Shown one piece after another: positions 17,193 through 44,629 of a stretch of 64,000 nucleotides of DNA. Below the pieces are notes generated by a model that did not search any database, had not been told where the DNA came from, and saw only the letters and a program-made list of their open reading frames with translations. Every line of letters starts with the position of its first letter. Position 1 is the first letter of the stretch. This stretch comes from a virus. Where the stretch lies: positions 32,001 through 96,000 of IMG/VR virus record IMGVR_UViG_3300027744_000013. The stretch is one strand, 5' to 3'. The position numbers and the translations under genes are program-made.

Positions 17193-18179
17193 ATGGCAAC
17201 TTTGGCTGAAATTAGAGCAAAACTTAAGGCATCTGAATCAAAAGGTTCAGGAGAACGTACAGGCGGTGATAATTCAATTTATCCGTTCTGGAACTTAAAA
17301 GAAGGCGATGAATCCGTTCTGCGATTCTTACCCGATGGTAACACTGACAACACATTTTTCTGGGTTGAACGTGCAATGATTAAATTACCATTCGCCGGCA
17401 TCAAGGGTGAATCAGAAAGCAAACCAACTATCGTACAAGTACCATGCGTTGAAATGTATGGCGACACTTGCCCAATACTGTCAGAAGTTCGCGGCTGGTT
17501 TAAAGACCCTGCACTTGAAGATATGGGTCGTAAGTATTGGAAGAAACGCAGTTACATTTTCCAAGGATTTGTAACTGAAGATGGTTTGAATGAGAAAGAA
17601 AAAGCAACAAACCCAATCCGTAGATTTATCATCGGACCTCAAATCTTTACATCAATTCGTGCGGCTTTGGTCGATCCAGAATTGGAAGATTTGCCAACTG
17701 ACTTCACAAACGGTATTGACTATCGTATGAAGAAAGGTAGCAAAGGCGGTTATGCTGACTACTCAACTAGTACTTGGTCACGTCGTTCACGTCCGTTGAA
17801 CGAACAAGAACAAGAAGCTATTAAAGAGCACGGCTTGTTTAACTTGTCAGACTTCCTACCTAAAAAGCCAAGTGAAATTGAGCTTAAAGTAATGAAGGAA
17901 ATGTTTGAAGCATCAGTTGATGGCGAACCATATGACATGGAACGTTGGGGACAGTATTTCAAACCAGCTGGCATGAGTCAGAACACAGGTGATCCACAAA
18001 AGACATCTACTCCTAAAGCCGCACCTGCTCCAGCGGCATCACATGATGATGAAGATGACACACCTGCTCCAAAAGCAACTGCTCCGGCAGTGGCACCTAA
18101 AGCAGAAACACCAAGTGACAGTGGCGGCGACAGTCGTGCCGCAGACATCTTGGCAATGATTCGCAATCGTCAGAAGTAA
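17193..18179 (+). CDS. ssDNA-binding protein (gp32-like)
   Basis: LRFLPDG, CPIL, RKYWKKRSY, GGYADYSTS.W. Confidence 0.9.
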   Translation: MATLAEIRAKLKASESKGSGERTGGDNSIYPFWNLKEGDESVLRFLPDGNTDNTFFWVERAMIKLPFAGIKGESESKPTIVQVPCVEMYGDTCPILSEVRGWFKDPALEDMGRKYWKKRSYIFQGFVTEDGLNEKEKATNPIRRFIIGPQIFTSIRAALVDPELEDLPTDFTNGIDYRMKKGSKGGYADYSTSTWSRRSRPLNEQEQEAIKEHGLFNLSDFLPKKPSEIELKVMKEMFEASVDGEPYDMERWGQYFKPAGMSQNTGDPQKTSTPKAAPAPAASHDDEDDTPAPKATAPAVAPKAETPSDSGGDSRAADILAMIRNRQK

Positions 18180-35979: not shown

Positions 35980-36267
35980 TCAAGCCAGCTCTTTGTCAAC
36001 CACGGTTAACATGTTAGCAGGCACTCTCCAGAGGCCCTGACCGGTGTTGACTGTTACATATTTAATGGCAATCTTGGTAACGAAGCCACGTGTGAGTCGT
36101 CCGGTCTTGCCGGACGTGAACTCCACGTTATCGCCAACTGACATGCTACGTTTGATCTGTTTGGCTAGGTTAGCCCTGTTCCATTTGACCGCATCGATCA
36201 TGCTACGAAGTTCGATGTCTGTCCAAGTGCCCAACATGATTGCGGTGTTGACTTGTTTGATATCCAT
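35980..36267 (-). CDS. Early hypothetical, SH3/KOW-like C-terminus
   Basis: VGDNVEF...G.VTKI...WRVPA. Confidence 0.75.
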   Translation of the reverse strand: MDIKQVNTAIMLGTWTDIELRSMIDAVKWNRANLAKQIKRSMSVGDNVEFTSGKTGRLTRGFVTKIAIKYVTVNTGQGLWRVPANMLTVVDKELA

Positions 36268-36302
36268 TAAGTTCGCTCCTTATTGTTTAAGTAGTTATTA
36301 TA

Positions 36303-36446
36303 TTACCAAAGCGTGGGGTTGTCAACCAGCTTCTTCCTGTTGTGAGCAATGATGCCTTCTTCAATGAACAGGGCCACGGCTAGGATCGCCAGGAAGATCC
36401 ACAAGGGCATGGTGTAGTAGAATGCGTAGAGGATAGCGTCGATCAT
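36303..36446 (-). CDS. 47-aa membrane peptide
   Basis: Read manually: MIDAILYAFYYTMPLWIFLAILAVALF...LVDNPTLW. Confidence 0.55.
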   Translation of the reverse strand: MIDAILYAFYYTMPLWIFLAILAVALFIEEGIIAHNRKKLVDNPTLW

Positions 36447-38370: not shown

Positions 38371-38744
38371 ACAGTCTCCTTAATGAAATAACGATATGGG
38401 AGGCCTAACAAGAAGCAAAGGTACTCGTCGTCACCATTGCTACCCTCTGCCTCATGGACCCAACGCAGGGCCATCTCACGGTCCTTAGCACCCGTCTGTA
38501 GGAGACCCAGCATACGCATTTCGAAGTCATGCTTGGCTACTTCTTCACGGGCCAATTGCTCTGTATAGTTCTCATCGATGGTCTTGGCCAGGCTAACGAA
38601 CTCAGCTTCGAACTGGGCTTCAGTCCACTCTGTAGTGTCGATACCGCGTGGGCGAACGCCATAGGCATCCTTGTACATATCCCAGAACTGGCAAGCATAT
38701 TGCTCTACGGTACTCATCTCTTCCCAGCTTTTGAATTCATTCAT
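38367..38744 (-). CDS. Early hypothetical protein
   Basis: DMYKDAYGVRPR; own promoter. Confidence 0.8.
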   Translation of the reverse strand: MNEFKSWEEMSTVEQYACQFWDMYKDAYGVRPRGIDTTEWTEAQFEAEFVSLAKTIDENYTEQLAREEVAKHDFEMRMLGLLQTGAKDREMALRWVHEAEGSNGDDEYLCFLLGLPYRYFIKETV

Positions 38745-38906
38745 CTTATGCTCCTTTGTGTGTCTGTATGCTAGTATTATAGCAAAGCCAGCCCAAAGTG
38801 TCAACCACGAGAGTGTTGTATTAATACAACAGGCACCGACCCCGTCCACCCCCCTCTGTTCGACTATGCTAGTATACGATCGGGTGGGGTTTCTGTCAAC
38901 CAAAGA

Positions 38907-38981
38907 TGGTCCGGCGTAACGGAATCGAACCGCTATTTAGGGAGTAGAAATCCCCTGTATTATCCATTATACGAACGCCAG
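38907..38981 (-). tRNA. tRNA-Arg(UCU)
   Basis: Full cloverleaf, anticodon loop TT-TCT-AC, encoded CCA. Confidence 0.92.
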
Positions 38982-38982
38982 A

Positions 38983-39061
38983 TGGTAGGCCCTCCCAGAG
39001 TCGAACTGGGCACCAATGGATTATGAGTCCACTGCTCTAACCAAGCATGAGCTAAGGGCCT
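38983..39061 (-). tRNA. tRNA(CAU), probably Ile2
   Basis: Cloverleaf, loop CT-CAT-AA, Ile2-like body, encoded CCA. Confidence 0.88.
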
Positions 39062-39254
39062 ATGATAATTTAATACGTTCTAACTCTATCAACTCGCCTT
39101 CTTCGTCTTCCTTGTAGATGACGTACTCAGTATGGTACTCATCAATGTTAGCGTCAGCGATTTGACGGGCTTCTTTTAGACTCTTTGTAGTATCAACGAG
39201 ATCTTCATGGCCATCTGCATCAATGGACCAAACCTCATAGAGTTCCCAGTTCAT
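39060..39254 (-). CDS. Acidic early protein
   Basis: Coupled ORF. Confidence 0.65.
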   Translation of the reverse strand: MNWELYEVWSIDADGHEDLVDTTKSLKEARQIADANIDEYHTEYVIYKEDEEGELIELERIKLS

Positions 39255-39429
39255 CTTTCGTGCTTTCGTAGTTTAGGAGGTCACAGAGCTTGATTGCTAT
39301 CTGCTCTGCTTCGTGCTGGTTATCGCGAGCGATAACGCATAAGACGCGGCCTTTCGGGTGACTCTCGAAGTCTCGTATGACAACCTTGTTGTCTCCGTAA
39401 TCGTCACTTAGAGAGCACCCGTACCGCAT
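39235..39429 (-). CDS. Early hypothetical protein
   Basis: Coupled ORF. Confidence 0.6.
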   Translation of the reverse strand: MRYGCSLSDDYGDNKVVIRDFESHPKGRVLCVIARDNQHEAEQIAIKLCDLLNYESTKDELGTL

Positions 39430-39432
39430 TAA

Positions 39433-39801
39433 TTAGAACGGAGCGTCTTCGTTCTCAACAACCTTAGCAGTCTTTGTCACGCCAGGGGCTTTGACAGCTT
39501 TGGTTGGTGCTTTGGCAACTGGTGCCTTGGCCTTAGGAGCAGCCTTAACCTTAGGAGCCTTTTCCTCAAGGTACTCTGCAATTGCTGATTGAGCAGCCGC
39601 ATCACTAAAGTCTGCCATGGTGGCAATTTGTTTCACTGCTTCATACTTTGAAACAGGAGTATCCAACTCGCACAAGCGGATGTCTTCGTGTCCGTGTTTC
39701 GCAAGTACCTTGATACGCATGATATCAGTTGCGAAGCGAACCTTGTACTCGCCGCCGAGCTTTGATACACCAACGATGTTAAATGTTTTATCTGTAGCCA
39801 T
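39433..39801 (-). CDS. Protein with Lys/Ala/Pro-rich histone-like tail
   Basis: KAPKVKAAPKAKAPVAKAP; GAGG RBS. Confidence 0.75.
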   Translation of the reverse strand: MATDKTFNIVGVSKLGGEYKVRFATDIMRIKVLAKHGHEDIRLCELDTPVSKYEAVKQIATMADFSDAAAQSAIAEYLEEKAPKVKAAPKAKAPVAKAPTKAVKAPGVTKTAKVVENEDAPF

Positions 39802-39848
39802 TTGTAATACCTCTTCTGTGTGTGATTAAAATTAGTTAAAGAACTTCT

Positions 39849-40124
39849 CTAACTGTTATTATTATAGTGCCGTTTCGCCTTCTTGTCAACCATTTTGTTT
39901 GCCTTTTGGGCAACCATTTGGAACTCTTTTTGGATATAATGTGCAACCATCATGTTCTTAATCATAATGGTTAAATCGGACCCATGATCATCTGGACAGA
40001 TGAATCGGACAGGGCAAGTGCCCCATCCACCGTATTCTACGAACTCAAAGTACCAGCGCCTATGAGCTTTGTTAGCAGGATCAAAGGCTACCAGTGGACG
40101 GGCAAGATATTCTAGTCTACTCAC
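39849..40124 (-). CDS. Early hypothetical protein
   Basis: FDPANKAHR, WGTCPVRF. Confidence 0.7.
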   Translation of the reverse strand: MSRLEYLARPLVAFDPANKAHRRWYFEFVEYGGWGTCPVRFICPDDHGSDLTIMIKNMMVAHYIQKEFQMVAQKANKMVDKKAKRHYNNNS

Positions 40125-40174
40125 GATCCCTTGCCCATTTTGCCATAATGGCTTCTAGTTGGTCCATTGCTTCT

Positions 40175-40810
40175 TTACTTGGTGTCATTTTCTTGTTCCT
40201 GTTCGTTAGTTGCACTCAACCCGCCATCAAGATCGATGTCGATATTTTCCTCTTCGTATTCAGCCATGCACTCGCTGATGCCAAACATCTCGTCCAATTC
40301 TGACGGAACGTCTTCGGCTACCTGTGTGCTAGACATGCCGCCCAGCTCATAGAAGTCATCACCGTTCTCATCATAGATACCAGCAAAGCACATGCCCGGC
40401 TCATAGTAATACAGTCGAACTGAGAAGCCCAAGTCCATGAACTTGTCCATGGCCGCTGTGGGGGGTGCCCAGGCTGAATCAAAACTCATTGTAATCTTGT
40501 TAGGGCTGTCTTGCTGTGGTTCGTTATAGTCATCACCACCTACATCCCACTTGGTGCCCCACTCATTAACGCAGTAGTCATACCATGTGGCATAACCATA
40601 GGTGCTGAGATTGTGCATGGTCTGCTCTTGCAGTTTGATCTGCTCGGGCTCTTCATCACTACCTACGCGGCCTGCTACAATCTGCAGAGCCTGTGGCACT
40701 GGACAGAACTCTGCCAGGAACCGGCCTTCAGCAAAGGCCTTCTTGGCCCGGGTAATCATTGCAGGGTCTTCGTGCTGGAGTTCCAGCGTGTTGTTGCACC
40801 AATTAGGCAT
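40175..40810 (-). CDS. YubB ferredoxin-like (DUF1281-type) protein
   Basis: MPNWCNN, WGTKWD, FDSAWAPP, YYEPGMCFAG. Confidence 0.8.
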   Translation of the reverse strand: MPNWCNNTLELQHEDPAMITRAKKAFAEGRFLAEFCPVPQALQIVAGRVGSDEEPEQIKLQEQTMHNLSTYGYATWYDYCVNEWGTKWDVGGDDYNEPQQDSPNKITMSFDSAWAPPTAAMDKFMDLGFSVRLYYYEPGMCFAGIYDENGDDFYELGGMSSTQVAEDVPSELDEMFGISECMAEYEEENIDIDLDGGLSATNEQEQENDTK

Positions 40811-40811
40811 A

Positions 40812-40955
40812 TTAGACTCCAGTGTGTAAAGGATTGCGTTTACGAAGGTGTGCCAAAGCGGCCTCTTTGCTGTCAAAGCGACCCGAGATGGGCGTTTGAT
40901 GGCTACCACGCACAATGAACCAACCTGCTAACAGGCTATTGAAGATGACTTTCAT
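40812..40955 (-). CDS. 47-aa early protein
   Basis: Read manually: MKVIFNSLLAGWFIVRGSHQTPISGRFDSKEAALAHL...; GGAG RBS. Confidence 0.6.
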   Translation of the reverse strand: MKVIFNSLLAGWFIVRGSHQTPISGRFDSKEAALAHLRKRNPLHTGV

Positions 40956-40956
40956 C

Positions 40957-41223
40957 TTAGACTCCCATTTCGTAAAAGGTTACTGAAGGATCAATGCTGA
41001 GCAGTTCTTCTGCACAACGGCTAAGGAACTTAACTCTGCGGCTTACTTCTGCACGGGGCAGTTCGCCATCGCATGTTAGGTTCTCTGGGCTCATGTCGCT
41101 GTCAATGCGATCTGCAATCTTTTGACGATCAGCGGCGTTGAGCAGGCTGAGTGGCTTGTTGCCAAACAAGGCACCCCATCGATTGATACCATCTACATAC
41201 TGTTCTATGGTTGCTATGTTCAT
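40957..41223 (-). CDS. Early hypothetical protein
   Basis: SPENLTCDGE; own promoter and leader. Confidence 0.8.
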   Translation of the reverse strand: MNIATIEQYVDGINRWGALFGNKPLSLLNAADRQKIADRIDSDMSPENLTCDGELPRAEVSRRVKFLSRCAEELLSIDPSVTFYEMGV

Positions 41224-41286
41224 AAGTTTCGCTCCTTATCTGTTTGTGTAAGTGTATATTATACTGCCAACTACCCAACTTGTCAA

Positions 41287-41595
41287 TAGTAAAGAGGAAC
41301 CATTGTGCATCTGTCTCTACCCTATGCAACGTCTACATAGGGCCTGCACGGTCATTACTACTAGATTGTCCACCGCAAGTCCGGATCCACATGGCCTAAG
41401 CCATTGATCCTGTTTCATGCTCCTGGACTTGACCAACCCCCGTCGGTATTGTCATCATCCCAGTCGCCTAGTGGTCTAGTTAACCTCAATTTGGGAGGCC
41501 GAGTCTACAAACTCGCTTCGTATCCCTTGGTTCCAACCCTTTTTGCATTTCTGCGTGGGTTCTTACATTCGAGGATCGCCTTTATCTTTTACTTG
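41287..41595 (-). ncRNA. Candidate ~300-nt structured ncRNA
   Basis: Own promoter, no convincing ORF, many nested helices, paired ends. Confidence 0.65.
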
Positions 41596-41617
41596 TTTCT
41601 ATTATAGTCTCTTTCGC

Positions 41618-41878
41618 CTACTTCGTCAATCGGAACTTGTCAATAACCCTTTTTGCTTCAAGGTTATCAGGAAGCATACCATCTTCGGCCATGCCCTTAC
41701 GATAAGTCTCAACCAGTTCCATCTTCATCATCTCTACAATGCTCTCGCACTCGGCCTTTTCCCGCTTGGGCAAGGTAGCAATGAATCGTTCTGCATCACT
41801 CCACTCTTCAATGCTCCACAGAATGTCTGCTAGAACCTTTTGGCGGGCATTGAGGCCCTCTAATGTGATCTCAACCAT
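41618..41878 (-). CDS. Early hypothetical protein
   Basis: Coupled ORF. Confidence 0.7.
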   Translation of the reverse strand: MVEITLEGLNARQKVLADILWSIEEWSDAERFIATLPKREKAECESIVEMMKMELVETYRKGMAEDGMLPDNLEAKRVIDKFRLTK

Positions 41879-42017
41879 TGTCGCGTCCTTTGTGTTTGGG
41901 GTTGCGTTTAAATTTTACCTTGCTCTGCACAACCTTCTGCTTGAAGGGTGTGTCCTTGCAGAACAGGACAATGTGTGCCCTGACCTGCTTGGGTAGTTTG
42001 ATTGTAATCTTCATCAT
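41871..42017 (-). CDS. Basic 48-aa peptide
   Basis: Own promoter; PFKQKVV..K..FKR.PKH. Confidence 0.65.
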   Translation of the reverse strand: MMKITIKLPKQVRAHIVLFCKDTPFKQKVVQSKVKFKRNPKHKGRDNG

Positions 42018-42096
42018 GTGCTCCTGTCTGTATAAATGTATTATACAACCAAAAGCCCAAAGCGTCAACCGCTAAACAGCGGGGCCTGGTCTAGTG

Positions 42097-42291
42097 TTAG
42101 GCTCCGTAGTAGTCGGGCGACTCGGTGTCCTGTGGCGTTTCCGCAACATCTTCACGGGCCACCCCAAAGTCATCCAGTACATCGTAGACATACTCAATTG
42201 GGATCAACAGCTCTGCGGCAATAGCCTTTGCACCGTAGCCCTCAATGAATAGGGTCTCTACATCGTAATACATATCTTTGACTGCACCCAT
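42097..42291 (-). CDS. Early hypothetical protein
   Basis: TAATG coupling. Confidence 0.7.
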   Translation of the reverse strand: MGAVKDMYYDVETLFIEGYGAKAIAAELLIPIEYVYDVLDDFGVAREDVAETPQDTESPDYYGA

Positions 42292-42521
42292 TATGCGTTC
42301 TCCATCTCTTTGCGTTGTTCAACTTCTGCTACCAACTCCTCGTCTGAGAAGTTACCGTAGCCCTTAAATCCATCTTCCAGGTATGTCCAAAGCAGTTCTA
42401 GACCCCCGTCGTCTGTAGACATTATATAGTCAAAGTCGCTTTGGGTCAAGTAGTCAACGGCTGTTTCTCTATCGAATAGCTTGTCTTTCGCACTCGCCTT
42501 TTTGCTTTGGAATCCAGTCAT
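42291..42521 (-). CDS. Early hypothetical protein
   Basis: TAATG coupling. Confidence 0.7.
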   Translation of the reverse strand: MTGFQSKKASAKDKLFDRETAVDYLTQSDFDYIMSTDDGGLELLWTYLEDGFKGYGNFSDEELVAEVEQRKEMENA

Positions 42522-42988
42522 TATGCGTACTCCCCTTCTGTGAGGAACGCTTCTTCAAGCGTCACATAGTTGTCGCTGTGGTCTGCTACAAACCAAACAG
42601 CCTTGCCGTTGACGTTGCGCAGGATGTACTCAAATTCTTCGTACTGGTGATTGGCAACATAGTCTGCATAGTCTTTGAACTTCTTAGCAGGGCACTTCTC
42701 GTTGCGATCACGTCCGTAGAATGTACACATATTCTCTACCAGTGCTTCGTGTGCATCGCGTTCCTCTTTGGTTTCCAATTGGAATGAGCTAAACGGATGT
42801 TGGACGCCAATGGTAGGGCGCAGGCTAGACAAGTCACCCAAGTCAATCAGCCTGCGCAGTTTGAACGGGTCACTGTAATGTTCAGCAAGGATCTTGCCGT
42901 TGTTGCTCAAGTAACCGTCCCAGTGGCAGTATACCTGCTCTACTGTACCGTCTGCGTATTCAAGTGCGATTGTTGAACGTGTTCCCAT
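42521..42988 (-). CDS. Early protein with YCHWDGY motif
   Basis: MGTRSTI...YCHWDGY...YGRDR; own promoter. Confidence 0.8.
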   Translation of the reverse strand: MGTRSTIALEYADGTVEQVYCHWDGYLSNNGKILAEHYSDPFKLRRLIDLGDLSSLRPTIGVQHPFSSFQLETKEERDAHEALVENMCTFYGRDRNEKCPAKKFKDYADYVANHQYEEFEYILRNVNGKAVWFVADHSDNYVTLEEAFLTEGEYA

Positions 42989-43044
42989 TTTAGCTCCTAG
43001 TGTGTTTGTGTATGTGTATATTATAGCGCCTTTTGGGCACCCAG

Positions 43045-43257
43045 TCAATCAGCCCAGCATTCCGTGGCCAAGCGTGTGGTTATTGTTTCACCACCAATGT
43101 AGTCACCTGAGAAGCCATGCTTGTTCTCCAGCACAAGAGCCACGCCAGCATAAGTCTTCTTGATCTCTATGATCTTGGCCCATTGCTCGATGTCGCTCTT
43201 GAAGGCCACGTTGTCGCCTACCTTAACTTCTACATCATGTACCATGCAAGTCTTCAT
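43045..43257 (-). CDS. Early hypothetical protein
   Basis: Own promoter and leader. Confidence 0.75.
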   Translation of the reverse strand: MKTCMVHDVEVKVGDNVAFKSDIEQWAKIIEIKKTYAGVALVLENKHGFSGDYIGGETITTRLATECWAD

Positions 43258-43322
43258 AGTTCGCTCCTAGTGTGTTTGTGTATGTGTTAATTATAACAGG
43301 GAACCCAGTCCCTGTCAACCAA

Positions 43323-43520
43323 TTAGCGATTGGCAAACTCGCAGTCGGCACCCTCGGGACCAACCTTGACTTCGTCGTACCAGGTAATCTCATACCCAAA
43401 GTCCTCGCCCTCCAAGACTGCGATACGAGCCAGGGCCAGCTTGGCAGTGGGATACACTCCGTAGATCATGCTCTCAGGAGCGCCACGGTATTCAGCACGA
43501 ACAATAAAAATAGAAGTCAT
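43323..43520 (-). CDS. Early hypothetical protein
   Basis: Own promoter. Confidence 0.7.
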   Translation of the reverse strand: MTSIFIVRAEYRGAPESMIYGVYPTAKLALARIAVLEGEDFGYEITWYDEVKVGPEGADCEFANR

Positions 43521-43561
43521 TTTGTTTCCTTAGTGTGTTGCGATGTGTGTATTATAACGTC

Positions 43562-43810
43562 TCAAGCCCACTCTGTCAACTGGACGTCAGCAATAACCCT
43601 ACTGCCTGTATGGGTAAGGAATACCTTAGTGCTGTCAGAACCGCCCTTGCACAGGAAGACTGCCATGTAGCAGAACTGCCCACCGTTGGTGATGCCCAGG
43701 AACTTGCATGAGCTGAACGCAGGGCCCTTGTAGCCCGCATCCTTGGCCGCCCGGGTTAGGGCTGGTGCTGAGAAGCTGATAAGGGTCTTAAGTGTGTCAG
43801 GTGTGATCAT
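43562..43810 (-). CDS. Early hypothetical protein
   Basis: ATGA coupling. Confidence 0.7.
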   Translation of the reverse strand: MITPDTLKTLISFSAPALTRAAKDAGYKGPAFSSCKFLGITNGGQFCYMAVFLCKGGSDSTKVFLTHTGSRVIADVQLTEWA

Positions 43811-44055
43811 GCCAGCACCACTACCTTTCTAACGTCTGTACGCAAGTCGCCAGTCTCTTTATCAAACTGGTCCTCGTACTCCCCTACCATCTTGTCCATG
43901 CGGTGGTACTCACTGTACTCCACTACACCCTCGTCAACCCTATCAATCTTAGGGGCTACTTCTGTGCGCCAGTGGTCGCCGTAGCAGTAGCTGAAGTGGA
44001 CCTCTGCGTCCTGATCCATATACTTGAGGGATTCGATAAGTTCTTTGACTAGCAT
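43807..44055 (-). CDS. Early hypothetical protein
   Basis: MLVKELIE.L; own promoter and leader. Confidence 0.75.
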   Translation of the reverse strand: MLVKELIESLKYMDQDAEVHFSYCYGDHWRTEVAPKIDRVDEGVVEYSEYHRMDKMVGEYEDQFDKETGDLRTDVRKVVVLA

Positions 44056-44105
44056 AGTTTCGCTCCTATTGCGTTGTTGATGTATGTATTATAACGCCTT
44101 TTGGG

Positions 44106-44372
44106 TTAGGCGTCAACCGCTTCTTTAAAATAGACAACTTTGATTGTGCCTTTTGCACGATCTTCTACGAACACGTATTCTGCACTTTCGTTAAAATTAG
44201 CACGTGGATCGCTTAGGACCTTCTTAGTCATAATCTTAACACTGCGCACACTAACAGAACCCTGCCAGTCTTCGTGGGCCACGTTTTCGTTGTAGCTGTA
44301 TTTGCCGAGGCATCCGCACATACAACCGATCTTGCCCGAATATACTTTGGCCACTTTGCTGATGTCTAACAT
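44106..44372 (-). CDS. Early hypothetical protein
   Basis: YSGK.GCMCGC.GKY; own promoter and leader. Confidence 0.75.
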   Translation of the reverse strand: MLDISKVAKVYSGKIGCMCGCLGKYSYNENVAHEDWQGSVSVRSVKIMTKKVLSDPRANFNESAEYVFVEDRAKGTIKVVYFKEAVDA

Positions 44373-44467
44373 AGTTTCGCTCCTAATGTTTGTTTGTATG
44401 TGTGTATTATAGCACTGTTTGGGCAAAGCGTCAACCGCGTTAAAAAAAGCCCCTAAGGGCTGTAGGG

Positions 44468-44629
44468 TTATGCTACTGCTTTATAAACTATTACAGTAGT
44501 GTCCGCAAAATCTGCGTGTGCATTGTAAAATGCTTGTGCTCGTGCAATAGCGTCTTCTGCGCTAGTTGCTGTTACTACGCACAAATCTTCTATGTTGTCG
44601 TAACGCAAATAAACTGTGTATTTCTGCAT
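44468..44629 (-). CDS. 53-aa early protein, GA/GG-free template
   Basis: Read manually: MQKYTVYLRYDNIEDLCVVTATSAEDAIARA...; own promoter. Confidence 0.7.
   Translation of the reverse strand: MQKYTVYLRYDNIEDLCVVTATSAEDAIARAQAFYNAHADFADTTVIVYKAVA

What the first reader, a model, noticed from the sequence alone, without database searches (positions are those of the whole stretch)
41287..41595. Unassigned ~300-nt structured RNA occupying its own cassette
Seen: promoter TTGACG-17-TATAAT (41601-41629) is followed by no leader or credible ORF. Minus-strand pairings: AGUAAA(A)GA/UCUUUACU at the ends; GGAACCA/UGGUUCC; AACCC/GGGUU around GCA-GAAA-UGC; CGAGUU/GACUCG; CCUC/GAGG; ACUAGA/UCUAGU around CCAC/GUGG, CAAGUCC/GGACUUG, GGAUC/GAUCC and AUGGC-UUAG-GCCAU; GUGCA/UGCAC around CCCUAUGUA/UGCAUAGGG. 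I do not recognise tmRNA, RNase P or group I/II intron hallmarks. Inference: a large early-expressed ncRNA, possibly a new class.
Basis: partly seen in the sequence, partly recalled or inferred. Interest (0 to 1): 0.8.

Follow-up and report, generated by a model that had tools for sequence, protein, structure and literature searches.

The report
New folded RNA of giant lake phages
The stretch is a real gene for a non-coding, tightly folded RNA of an uncultured giant freshwater phage, made of two conserved RNA modules fused together; it matches no catalogued RNA family and its job is still unknown.

Summary
A near-consensus sigma-70 promoter (41629-41601) drives about 305 nt on the minus strand that has no conserved reading frame.

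The unit is composite:
- an ~87-nt module A (41582-41496);
- a ~200-nt core (41487-41288);
- an outer closing helix around both (41593-41585 with 41295-41288).

The core is a genuine RNA family. I found 136 copies (101 distinct) in IMG/VR lake-phage contigs. 94% of pair cells are standard pairs, against 65% in shuffles, and 53 of 60 pairs show changes on both sides.

No Rfam family matches, even at E<=10. It is not tmRNA or RNase P RNA, and it is not T4 rnaC or rnaD. It was not found in GenBank phage records or in the nearest isolate, PA5oct.

It is single-copy in 5 of 5 complete 345-383 kb genomes, but missing from three near-complete relatives that also carry tRNA genes. So it is an accessory gene that changes position.

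It occurs either as a promoter-driven cassette, as here, or inside phage tRNA arrays, typically between tRNA-Glu and tRNA-Asp.

Function is unknown. My best guess is a stable trans-acting RNA tied to tRNA or translation takeover.

This scan had already found the same family on other genomes.

The parts
41601..41629 (-). Sigma-70-type promoter: -35 TTGACG at 41629-41624, 17-bp spacer, -10 TATAAT at 41606-41601. The predicted start is about 41595-41593.
   Evidence: 11 of 12 consensus positions. It is one of 12 minus-strand sites with at least 11 of 12 matches in 38.5-44.5 kb. In many relatives the -10 ends 7 nt before the model start.
41585..41593 (-). 5' strand of the outer closing helix (AGUAAAAGA). 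It pairs with 41295-41288.
   Evidence: The closing helix covaries across the family (helices 1-2).
41496..41582 (-). Module A, an ~87-nt two-armed RNA element inserted inside the closing helix. It has a closing AGGC/GCCU stem, an arm AUCCU/GGGAU + AACCC/GGGUU + GCA-GAAA-UGC, and a hairpin GCGAGUU/GACUCGG.
   Evidence: 16 distinct variants, 25 predicted pairs, 6 with changes on both sides. It also occurs alone behind its own promoter (L084) or kilobases away from the core (L124, L130, L135, L166).
41288..41487 (-). Core RNA (~200 nt), running from the inner closing stem GAGG (41487-41484, pairing with CCUC at 41297-41294) to the 3' strand of the outer stem (41295-41288).
   Evidence: Model R1 hits 41272-41505 at 185 bits (the window copy was in the seed). 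Independent nhmmer hits came from the window sequence alone.
41360..41480 (-). 5' domain. P2 is CUAGA (41479-41475) with UCUAG (41365-41361). P2a is CCAC (41474-41471) with GUGG (41373-41370). Together they enclose P3 and P4.
   Evidence: Helices 3-5 are 97-100% paired and include CG/GC/AU swaps.
41420..41469 (-). P3 arm, with CUGG (41463-41460) pairing with CCAG (41426-41423). Its tip is the tetraloop GACG at 41444-41441.
   Evidence: Helices 6-8. The tetraloop is GACG or GCCG in most variants.
41409..41419 (-). Near-invariant unpaired junction CAUGAAACAGG.
   Evidence: Alignments.
41383..41410 (-). P4 hairpin, here extended: GGAUC...AUGGC-UUAG-GCCAU...GAUCC. Many relatives have a short stem capped by a GNRA loop (GCAA or GUAA) instead.
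   Evidence: An extra covarying base pair sits at its foot (columns 162/255).
41350..41359 (-). Invariant AGUAAUGACC. Its GACC (41353-41350) pairs with GGUU (41301-41298) to form P5.
   Evidence: Helix 10 (97% paired). The motif was used to find 51 loci.
41305..41349 (-). 3' domain. P6 is GUGCA (41349-41345) with UGCAC (41309-41305). The P7 hairpin spans 41342-41320 with the 7-nt loop AGACGUU at 41334-41328. The purine-rich junction AGAGACAGA lies at 41318-41310.
   Evidence: Helices 11-15. The loop pattern RGACGNN is kept even in variants whose 3' domain is otherwise rebuilt.
41258..41286 (-). Next promoter (TTGACA-17-TATAAT), which starts directly after the RNA. No terminator lies between them.
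   Evidence: 12 of 12 consensus positions, and no terminator-like site at 41200-41300.
40957..41223 (-). Downstream 88-aa ORF of unknown family. It is a neighbour, not part of the RNA.
   Evidence: It has at least 582 relatives in IMG/VR. The RNA lies just upstream of it in only a few of them.
41618..41878 (-). Upstream 86-aa ORF of unknown family. It is a neighbour.
   Evidence: In contig 3300027746_000038 this ORF directly abuts the 88-aa ORF, and the RNA sits elsewhere.

Best explanation
This is a stand-alone gene for a stable, compactly folded, trans-acting non-coding RNA of an uncultured ~350-kb freshwater myophage.

SHOWN:
- A consensus host-type promoter sits directly in front of it, and there is no conserved ORF.
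- The ~200-nt core belongs to a family with a covariation-proven fold: a long closing helix and a three-way junction joining two domains.
- About 60 positions are invariant. They include the junctions UUA, UAGG, CAUGAA and AGUAAUGAC, and two loops that both show GACG.
- In this window an independent ~87-nt RNA module is fused inside the closing helix.
- The core is single-copy, changes place between genomes, and is present in some lineages and absent in close relatives.

INFERRED:
- Host RNA polymerase transcribes it early, starting at the first base of the closing helix.
- There is no terminator, so the 3' end is cut at the ~20-bp closing helix, in the manner of RNase III. In the tRNA-array version the ends are made by RNase P and by tRNA 3' processing of the flanking tRNAs.
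- The mature RNA works by offering its invariant loops and junctions to a partner. That partner is most probably a component of the tRNA or translation machinery that these phages remodel, since each carrier holds 27-41 tRNA genes.

The partner and the effect are unknown.
For: - Promoter and lack of ORF.
- Fold better than chance, and strand-specific.
- Homologues found from the window sequence alone.
- 136 hits, 101 distinct.
- Covariation: 40 of 60 pairs in 35 sequences. 93% of cells paired against 69% in shuffles for 47 sequences. 94.1% against 65.0%, 53 of 60 pairs with changes on both sides, 0 of 500 shuffles as good, and 36-42% paired when partners are slid, for 100 sequences.
- Composite nature.
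- One copy per complete genome.
- Context of the 101 variants: 71 have a sigma-70 promoter within 130 nt upstream. 34 have a same-strand tRNA within 30 nt downstream, of which 19 are tRNA-Asp(GTC). 16 have one within 30 nt upstream, of which 13 are tRNA-Glu(TTC).
- In L107 and L123 the closing helix starts at the CCA of tRNA-Glu and ends where tRNA-Asp begins.
- Carriers hold 27-41 tRNA genes each.
- A boxA-like TGTTCTTTAAAA lies about 30 nt upstream in 16 of 99 variants.
Against: - No direct evidence of a discrete transcript. The RNA-library data are assembled contigs that cover the whole early region, so they show neither ends nor levels.
- No terminator follows the RNA, so a read-through leader role is not excluded for this copy.
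- Near-complete relatives lack the RNA. Two of them have 28-29 tRNA genes in arrays and the third has 7, so it is not needed for array expression.
- In this genome the RNA is 2.2 kb from the nearest tRNAs and is physically independent of them.
- No partner was identified. The only protein with the same presence pattern is an 85-aa ORF of no known family, found in a sample of just 8 genomes.
Confidence: 0.6

Rival explanations
1. It is an anti-defence or host-takeover decoy. As an accessory early RNA, it would soak up a host factor, for example a tRNA-targeting nuclease or another RNA-binding immune or regulatory protein, by mimicking that factor's natural RNA target.
For: - Patchy presence among close relatives, and movement between genome positions.
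- It lies in a dense run of single-promoter early cassettes.
- The invariant loops carry GAC, the codon-like complement of the tRNA-Asp anticodon, and tRNA-Asp is the commonest neighbour.
Against: No defence target is known. No resemblance to any catalogued RNA, tRNA included, was detected. About 60 invariant positions and a complex fold are more than most sponges need.
Confidence: 0.15
2. It is a self-assembling RNA-only particle, a small counterpart of ROOL and GOLLD. Those are phage-borne, often lie near tRNA islands, and form multimeric cages.
For: It shares the ecological and genomic niche: phage-borne, next to tRNA genes, from lake water (10.1101/2024.12.08.627333, read). RNAs under 200 nt can form large assemblies (10.64898/2026.07.01.735769). 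Its exposed conserved loops and the GNRA cap on P4 could serve as interfaces.
Against: There is no sequence or model similarity to ROOL or GOLLD. The loop palindrome ACGU occurs in only about a third of variants. Nothing here tests oligomerisation.
Confidence: 0.1
3. It is a cis-acting element of the transcript: a processing stalk, an antitermination signal or a leader for downstream genes or tRNAs, and not a free RNA.
For: No terminator follows it. In array-type loci it is the first product after a boxA-like element. Its long closing helix resembles the processing stalks of rRNA operons.
Against: The downstream gene has its own 12/12 promoter straight after the RNA. The downstream partners differ from locus to locus: various ORFs, or tRNA-Asp, Ser, Leu, Glu or Tyr. 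The internal loops and junctions are more conserved than any flank. Relatives with tRNA arrays do without it.
Confidence: 0.07
4. It is a ribozyme, for example one that excises itself or acts on tRNA.
For: Many invariant unpaired nucleotides sit at junctions of a compact multi-helix fold.
Against: It matches no ribozyme family in Rfam. The RNase P-like words in the window copy (AAGUCC, GGCUUA) are not conserved in the family.
Confidence: 0.05
5. It is not a functional RNA. It would be either a small protein-coding gene or a chance structure.
For: Short ORFs exist on both strands of the window copy.
Against: No frame is kept open in more than 9 of 100 homologues, and lengths are not multiples of three. 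Changes on both sides of a pair occur in 53 of 60 pairs.
Confidence: 0.02

Closest known systems
Phage T4 rnaC and rnaD (species 1 and species 2 RNAs, 139 and 119 nt)
   Same: Both are small stable phage RNAs of unknown function, encoded on the tRNA strand next to or inside the phage tRNA cluster. Both are presumably released by the tRNA-processing machinery.
   Different: There is no homology. With filters off, model R1 scores under 2 bits on rnaC and rnaD. The present RNA is larger, belongs to PA5oct-related giant lake phages, and here sits apart from tRNAs behind its own promoter.
GOLLD and ROOL RNAs (Rfam families; cryo-EM in 10.1101/2024.12.08.627333)
   Same: They are ornate orphan RNAs of phages and prophages, often near tRNA islands, and GOLLD was first seen in lake metagenomes. 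Their function is unknown.
   Different: They are 500-800+ nt, against about 200 nt here. No Rfam match appears even at E<=10. Cage formation is shown for them and is untested here.
Bacterial and phage Y RNA / YrlA with Ro60 (PMC4201824)
   Same: Both are mid-size structured RNAs with a long closing stem and a complex distal module, sometimes phage-encoded near tRNAs.
   Different: No TROVE/Ro60 gene occurs in 5 of 5 complete carrier genomes, and there is no Rfam match.
T-box leader (tRNA-binding RNA)
   Same: The only resemblance is conceptual. A structured RNA presents a codon-like triplet (GAC) in a loop and is genomically tied to the matching tRNA (Asp).
   Different: It is not upstream of aminoacyl-tRNA synthetase or amino-acid genes. 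It has no T-box sequence or terminator/antiterminator, and no Rfam match. tRNA binding is untested.

Membership tests
Any Rfam 15 family (4227 models) | Covariance-model score at or above the family's gathering threshold | tested here: not met
   In the whole window only two tRNAs pass. Region 41100-41800 gives no match at E<=10 with permissive filters.
tmRNA | tRNA-like domain formed by the two ends, plus a tag reading frame | tested here: not met
   ARAGORN finds no tmRNA in the window or in the 108-kb record. The 3' end has no T-arm or CCA.
RNase P RNA | Conserved P4 strands (the AAGUCC and ACAGNA...GGCUUA type) held by long-range pairing, and a match to the Rfam models | tested here: not met
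   No Rfam hit. The look-alike words in the window copy vary or are missing in homologues.
T4 rnaC / rnaD | Sequence and structure homology to the T4 genes | tested here: not met
   Model R1 with filters off on T4 69-75 kb gives only noise, under 2 bits over rnaC and rnaD.
T4 rnaC / rnaD | Location in the phage tRNA cluster, on the tRNA strand | tested here: inconclusive
   This holds for 34 to 58 of the 101 family variants. In this window the nearest tRNAs are 2.2 kb away.
GOLLD / ROOL | Match to the Rfam model and a size of 500-800 nt | tested here: not met
   The core is about 200 nt.
GOLLD / ROOL | Homo-oligomeric cage formation | not testable with these tools
   This needs native gels, SEC or cryo-EM.
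Y RNA / YrlA | Co-occurrence with a Ro60 (TROVE) gene | tested here: not met
   0 of 5 complete carrier genomes have it, and the control genomes respond.
The uncatalogued lake-phage RNA family itself (model R1) | Closing helix, GG-UUA-CC, P2/P2a, UAGG, P3 with a GMCG tetraloop, CAUGAA, P4, AGUAAUGAC pairing with GUU(CC), and a P7 hairpin with an RGACGNN loop | tested here: met
   The window copy has every element and scores 185 bits (it was a seed member). It also retrieves relatives by itself.
Module A family | AGGC/GCCU closure, the AUCCU/GGGAU and AACCC/GGGUU arm with GCA-GAAA-UGC, and the GCGAGUU/GACUCGG hairpin | tested here: met
   nhmmer gives E=4e-28 on the window's own record.

The most novel reading that the evidence does not exclude
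The RNA could be a new kind of phage tool that acts on tRNA directly. Its two invariant loops both display GAC(G), which is complementary to the GUC anticodon of tRNA-Asp, the tRNA most often encoded right beside it. It would dock tRNA-Asp, or the related GUN-anticodon tRNAs, to shield, sequester or deliver them. Alternatively, it could use those loops to assemble into an RNA-only multimer, as ROOL and GOLLD do.
Probability: 0.12. Interest if true: 0.85.

Novelty: new variant of a known kind. Interest (0 to 1): 0.6.

Why it matters
Complex-fold orphan RNAs with about 60 invariant positions are rare. Past examples turned out to be ribozymes, riboswitches or RNA-only machines.

This one is abundant in lake viromes. 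Its sequence occurs in 20 public runs from 17 studies. It is carried by giant phages that rebuild the host's tRNA pool, and it behaves as a movable accessory gene. That makes it a concrete handle on what non-tRNA RNAs in phage tRNA clusters do, a question open since T4 species 1 and 2 RNAs.

It also shows that these phages shuffle and fuse RNA modules in the same way they shuffle small early genes.

A calibrated model and an alignment of 100 sequences now exist for experiments.

Tried and rejected
- Rfam at gathering threshold and at E<=10: nothing.
- ARAGORN tmRNA search: none.
- RNase P idea, from AAGUCC and GGCUUA in the window copy: the words are not conserved.
- T4 rnaC/rnaD homology: noise only.
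- blastn of three diverse variants against 50,697 GenBank phage records: no match.
- PA5oct whole genome with R1: no match at E<=10.
- Pattern scan of prokaryote genomes: the first 120 pattern matches are all chance (nhmmer).
- Ro60/TROVE partner: absent.
- Presence/absence profiling of about 1050 ORFs over 5 carrier and 3 non-carrier genomes: only one 85-aa ORF (G003 36077-36331) follows the RNA. It has no Pfam or PHROG family and was not found in the window's own 108-kb fragment. That is too thin to call it a partner.
- P3 tetraloop with P7 loop kissing contact: two C-G pairs are kept in 98-99% of 82 sequences. One lineage of 3 sequences changes G-C to A-U together with a second matching change. 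The proposed A-U/C-G pair holds in only 37%, so support is partial.
- Mutual-information scan for other tertiary pairs: it only extended P3 and P4 by a pair each.
- Metatranscriptome contigs from 4 freshwater RNA runs: they cover the RNA and the whole early region. Contig depth cannot rank genes, so there is no verdict on expression or ends. Loose ends at about 41496 and 41582 fit module boundaries in co-occurring strains.
- Literature search by topic and by the conserved motifs: no description found.

Full report
SETTING. The window is bases 32001-96000 of a 108-kb IMG/VR virus record that CheckV rates 29% complete. It encodes a tail sheath, large terminase, SSB and DnaB-type helicase. Its terminase is 55% identical to that of the 287-kb Pseudomonas phage PA5oct. 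Related IMG/VR records are 345-383 kb. Between 38.5 and 44.5 kb there are 20 promoter-like sites against 7.2 expected. Twelve of them are minus-strand sites with at least 11 of 12 consensus positions and 17-bp spacers. Two tRNA genes (Met, Arg) lie at 38907-39061 on the same strand.

THE OBSERVATION. The promoter at 41629-41601 and the next one at 41286-41258 are as described. The roughly 305 nt between them hold no ORF with a ribosome-binding site. The minus-strand RNA folds at -96.6 kcal/mol (z -2.9), while the plus strand reaches only z -1.5. All the listed complementarities exist.

HOMOLOGUES AND STRUCTURE. The window sequence alone retrieved relatives in loci that had been fetched through the neighbouring 88-aa protein. 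Some matched the whole stretch, some only its 3' two-thirds, and some only its 5' third. That split showed two modules.
- A motif scan (AGTAATGACNGTNNAGGCC) gave 51 loci.
- An alignment of 35 distinct cores gave a consensus fold in which 40 of 60 pairs show changes on both sides.
- A covariance model (R1) then found 136 copies, 101 of them distinct, including divergent ones at 30-120 bits.
- On 100 distinct sequences, 94.1% of pair cells are standard pairs, against 65.0% in column shuffles and 36-42% when partners are slid.
- 53 of 60 pairs show changes on both sides, and 0 of 500 shuffles reach any of the measures (47 sequences).
- No reading frame is conserved on either strand, and lengths are not multiples of three.

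ANATOMY. The core is built as follows.
- A ~19-bp closing helix leads to the junction GG-UUA-CC.
- The 5' domain has P2/P2a enclosing P3 and P4. P3 carries a GACG or GCCG tetraloop. P4 is often GNRA-capped and is extended here. The near-invariant CAUGAAACAGG lies between P3 and P4.
- The invariant AGUAAUGAC follows. Its GAC(C) pairs with the 3' (G)GUU.
- The 3' domain has P6, the purine-rich junction AGAGAUAGA, and a P7 hairpin with a 7-nt loop RGACGNN. That loop survives even where the rest of the 3' domain is replaced.

Window coordinates are given under parts.

Module A (41582-41496) is a separate family of 16 distinct variants, with 25 predicted pairs and 6 showing changes on both sides. 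It occurs in three arrangements:
- alone behind its own promoter (L084);
- upstream of a complete core (L103, L125);
- kilobases away from the core (L124, L130, L135, L166).

It is present in three of the five complete carrier genomes. In the window it is inserted between the outer and inner parts of the closing helix, so this transcript is a fusion. Two clash with the covarying core helices and one with module A's closing stem.

KNOWN FAMILIES. Every test for a known family was negative.
- Rfam 15 gives nothing, even at E<=10.
- ARAGORN finds no tmRNA.
- T4 rnaC and rnaD score as noise with R1.
- Three diverse variants find nothing by blastn in 50,697 GenBank phage records.
- PA5oct lacks it.
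- The first 120 pattern matches in prokaryote genomes are all chance.
- Searches of the paper library by topic and by the conserved motifs found no description.

DISTRIBUTION AND CONTEXT. Five complete (96-100%) genomes of 345-383 kb each carry exactly one copy, and each has 27-41 tRNA genes. Five other large relatives were chosen through the 88-aa protein, not through the RNA. Three of them are 93-100% complete. None has a match by the covariance model. In the three near-complete ones, which I fetched whole, nhmmer at E<=10 also finds nothing. Two of these three have arrays of 28-29 tRNA genes. The RNA is therefore accessory.

Among the 101 variants:
- 71 have a sigma-70 promoter within 130 nt upstream, often ending 7 nt before the closing helix;
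- 34 have a same-strand tRNA within 30 nt downstream, of which 19 are tRNA-Asp(GTC);
- 16 have one within 30 nt upstream, of which 13 are tRNA-Glu(TTC).

In L107 and L123 the closing helix begins at the CCA of tRNA-Glu and ends at the first base of tRNA-Asp. Sixteen of 99 variants have a boxA-like TGTTCTTTAAAA about 30 nt upstream. In contig 3300027746_000038 the two ORFs that flank the RNA in the window are adjacent, and the RNA lies elsewhere. Together these show that the cassette moves.

EXPRESSION. The stretch is held in 20 public runs from 17 studies, all freshwater, lake or viral metagenomes. Six of the runs are RNA libraries. Contigs from four RNA runs cover the RNA and the whole early region. 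Contigs cannot show ends, strand or level, so expression remains inferred from the promoter. Loose ends near 41496 and 41582 coincide with module boundaries. This fits strains in the same samples that join the modules differently.

MECHANISM. What the data show is a conserved, compact, single-copy, movable RNA gene. The rest is inference.
- Transcription by host polymerase starts at the closing helix.
- Release happens at that helix, because there is no terminator, or through processing of flanking tRNAs in the array version.
- Action is in trans, through the invariant loops and junctions.

All carriers remodel the tRNA pool, and a third to a half of the copies sit within or next to tRNA genes. 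A partner in the tRNA or translation apparatus is therefore the most likely. Against that, relatives with tRNA arrays lack the RNA, which argues against a role in array expression itself and leaves room for an anti-defence decoy.

Both invariant loops show GAC(G), complementary to the tRNA-Asp anticodon. That is a lead, not a finding. A P3-P7 loop contact has partial support, from one compensated lineage. The only protein that shares the RNA's presence pattern is an 85-aa ORF of no known family.

NOVELTY AND EARLIER NOTES. Earlier agents of this scan reported the same family on other genomes: as a composite early RNA, as an uncatalogued RNA carried once per genome, as a possible kissing-loop RNA, and as the first product after boxA. 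I re-derived single copy, composite build, boxA and absence from Rfam independently. I could only partly confirm the loop contact. It is a new RNA family within a known kind, the orphan structured RNAs of phage tRNA clusters (T4 species 1 and 2, GOLLD, ROOL).

Noticed in passing
window 38500-44500, minus strand: There are twelve near-perfect sigma-70 promoters (at least 11 of 12 positions, all with 17-bp spacers), about one per 500 bp, each ahead of one or a few small ORFs. The region 34-46 kb is also richer in G+C (0.44-0.49) than the 0.35-0.44 upstream of it.
   Followed up: partly
L084:3380-3600 (also L085, L086): Between a stand-alone module A and a tRNA-Asp gene lies another ~220-nt ORF-free stretch. 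It matches neither R1 nor module A and is possibly a further uncatalogued RNA.
   Followed up: no
L127:75-440, minus strand: Two tandem copies of the core RNA sit head to tail at the end of a contig, followed directly by tRNA-Asp. This is the only duplication seen.
   Followed up: no
L098, L097, L104, L100, L116 and others, about 30 nt upstream of the RNA; window minus strand near 17830: A boxA-like element (TGTTCTTTAAAA or TGTTCTTTAACA, compared with E. coli rrn boxA TGCTCTTTAACAA, quoted from memory) follows the promoter of the tRNA-array operon in 16 of 99 variants. That suggests rRNA-type antitermination of phage tRNA operons. One boxA-like word also occurs in the window.
   Followed up: partly
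tRNA-Asp genes in loci L002-L235: 26 of 74 phage tRNA-Asp(GTC) genes have U instead of a purine at position 37, mostly with the anticodon loop UUGUCUA.
   Followed up: no
G009 at about 350196 and G008 at about 329801 (related genomes without the RNA): ARAGORN calls a tRNA with a CUA anticodon, an amber-suppressor type, in two related giant-phage genomes.
   Followed up: no
G003 36077-36331 (L431:16077-16334): An 85-aa ORF of no Pfam or PHROG family is the only one of about 1050 ORFs present in all 5 RNA-carrying genomes and absent from the 3 non-carriers.
   Followed up: partly
window 40957-41223, minus strand: The 88-aa ORF downstream of the RNA has no PHROG match, yet it has at least 582 relatives in IMG/VR at 58-85% identity among the best 80. 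It is a very widespread small early protein of this phage group.
   Followed up: no
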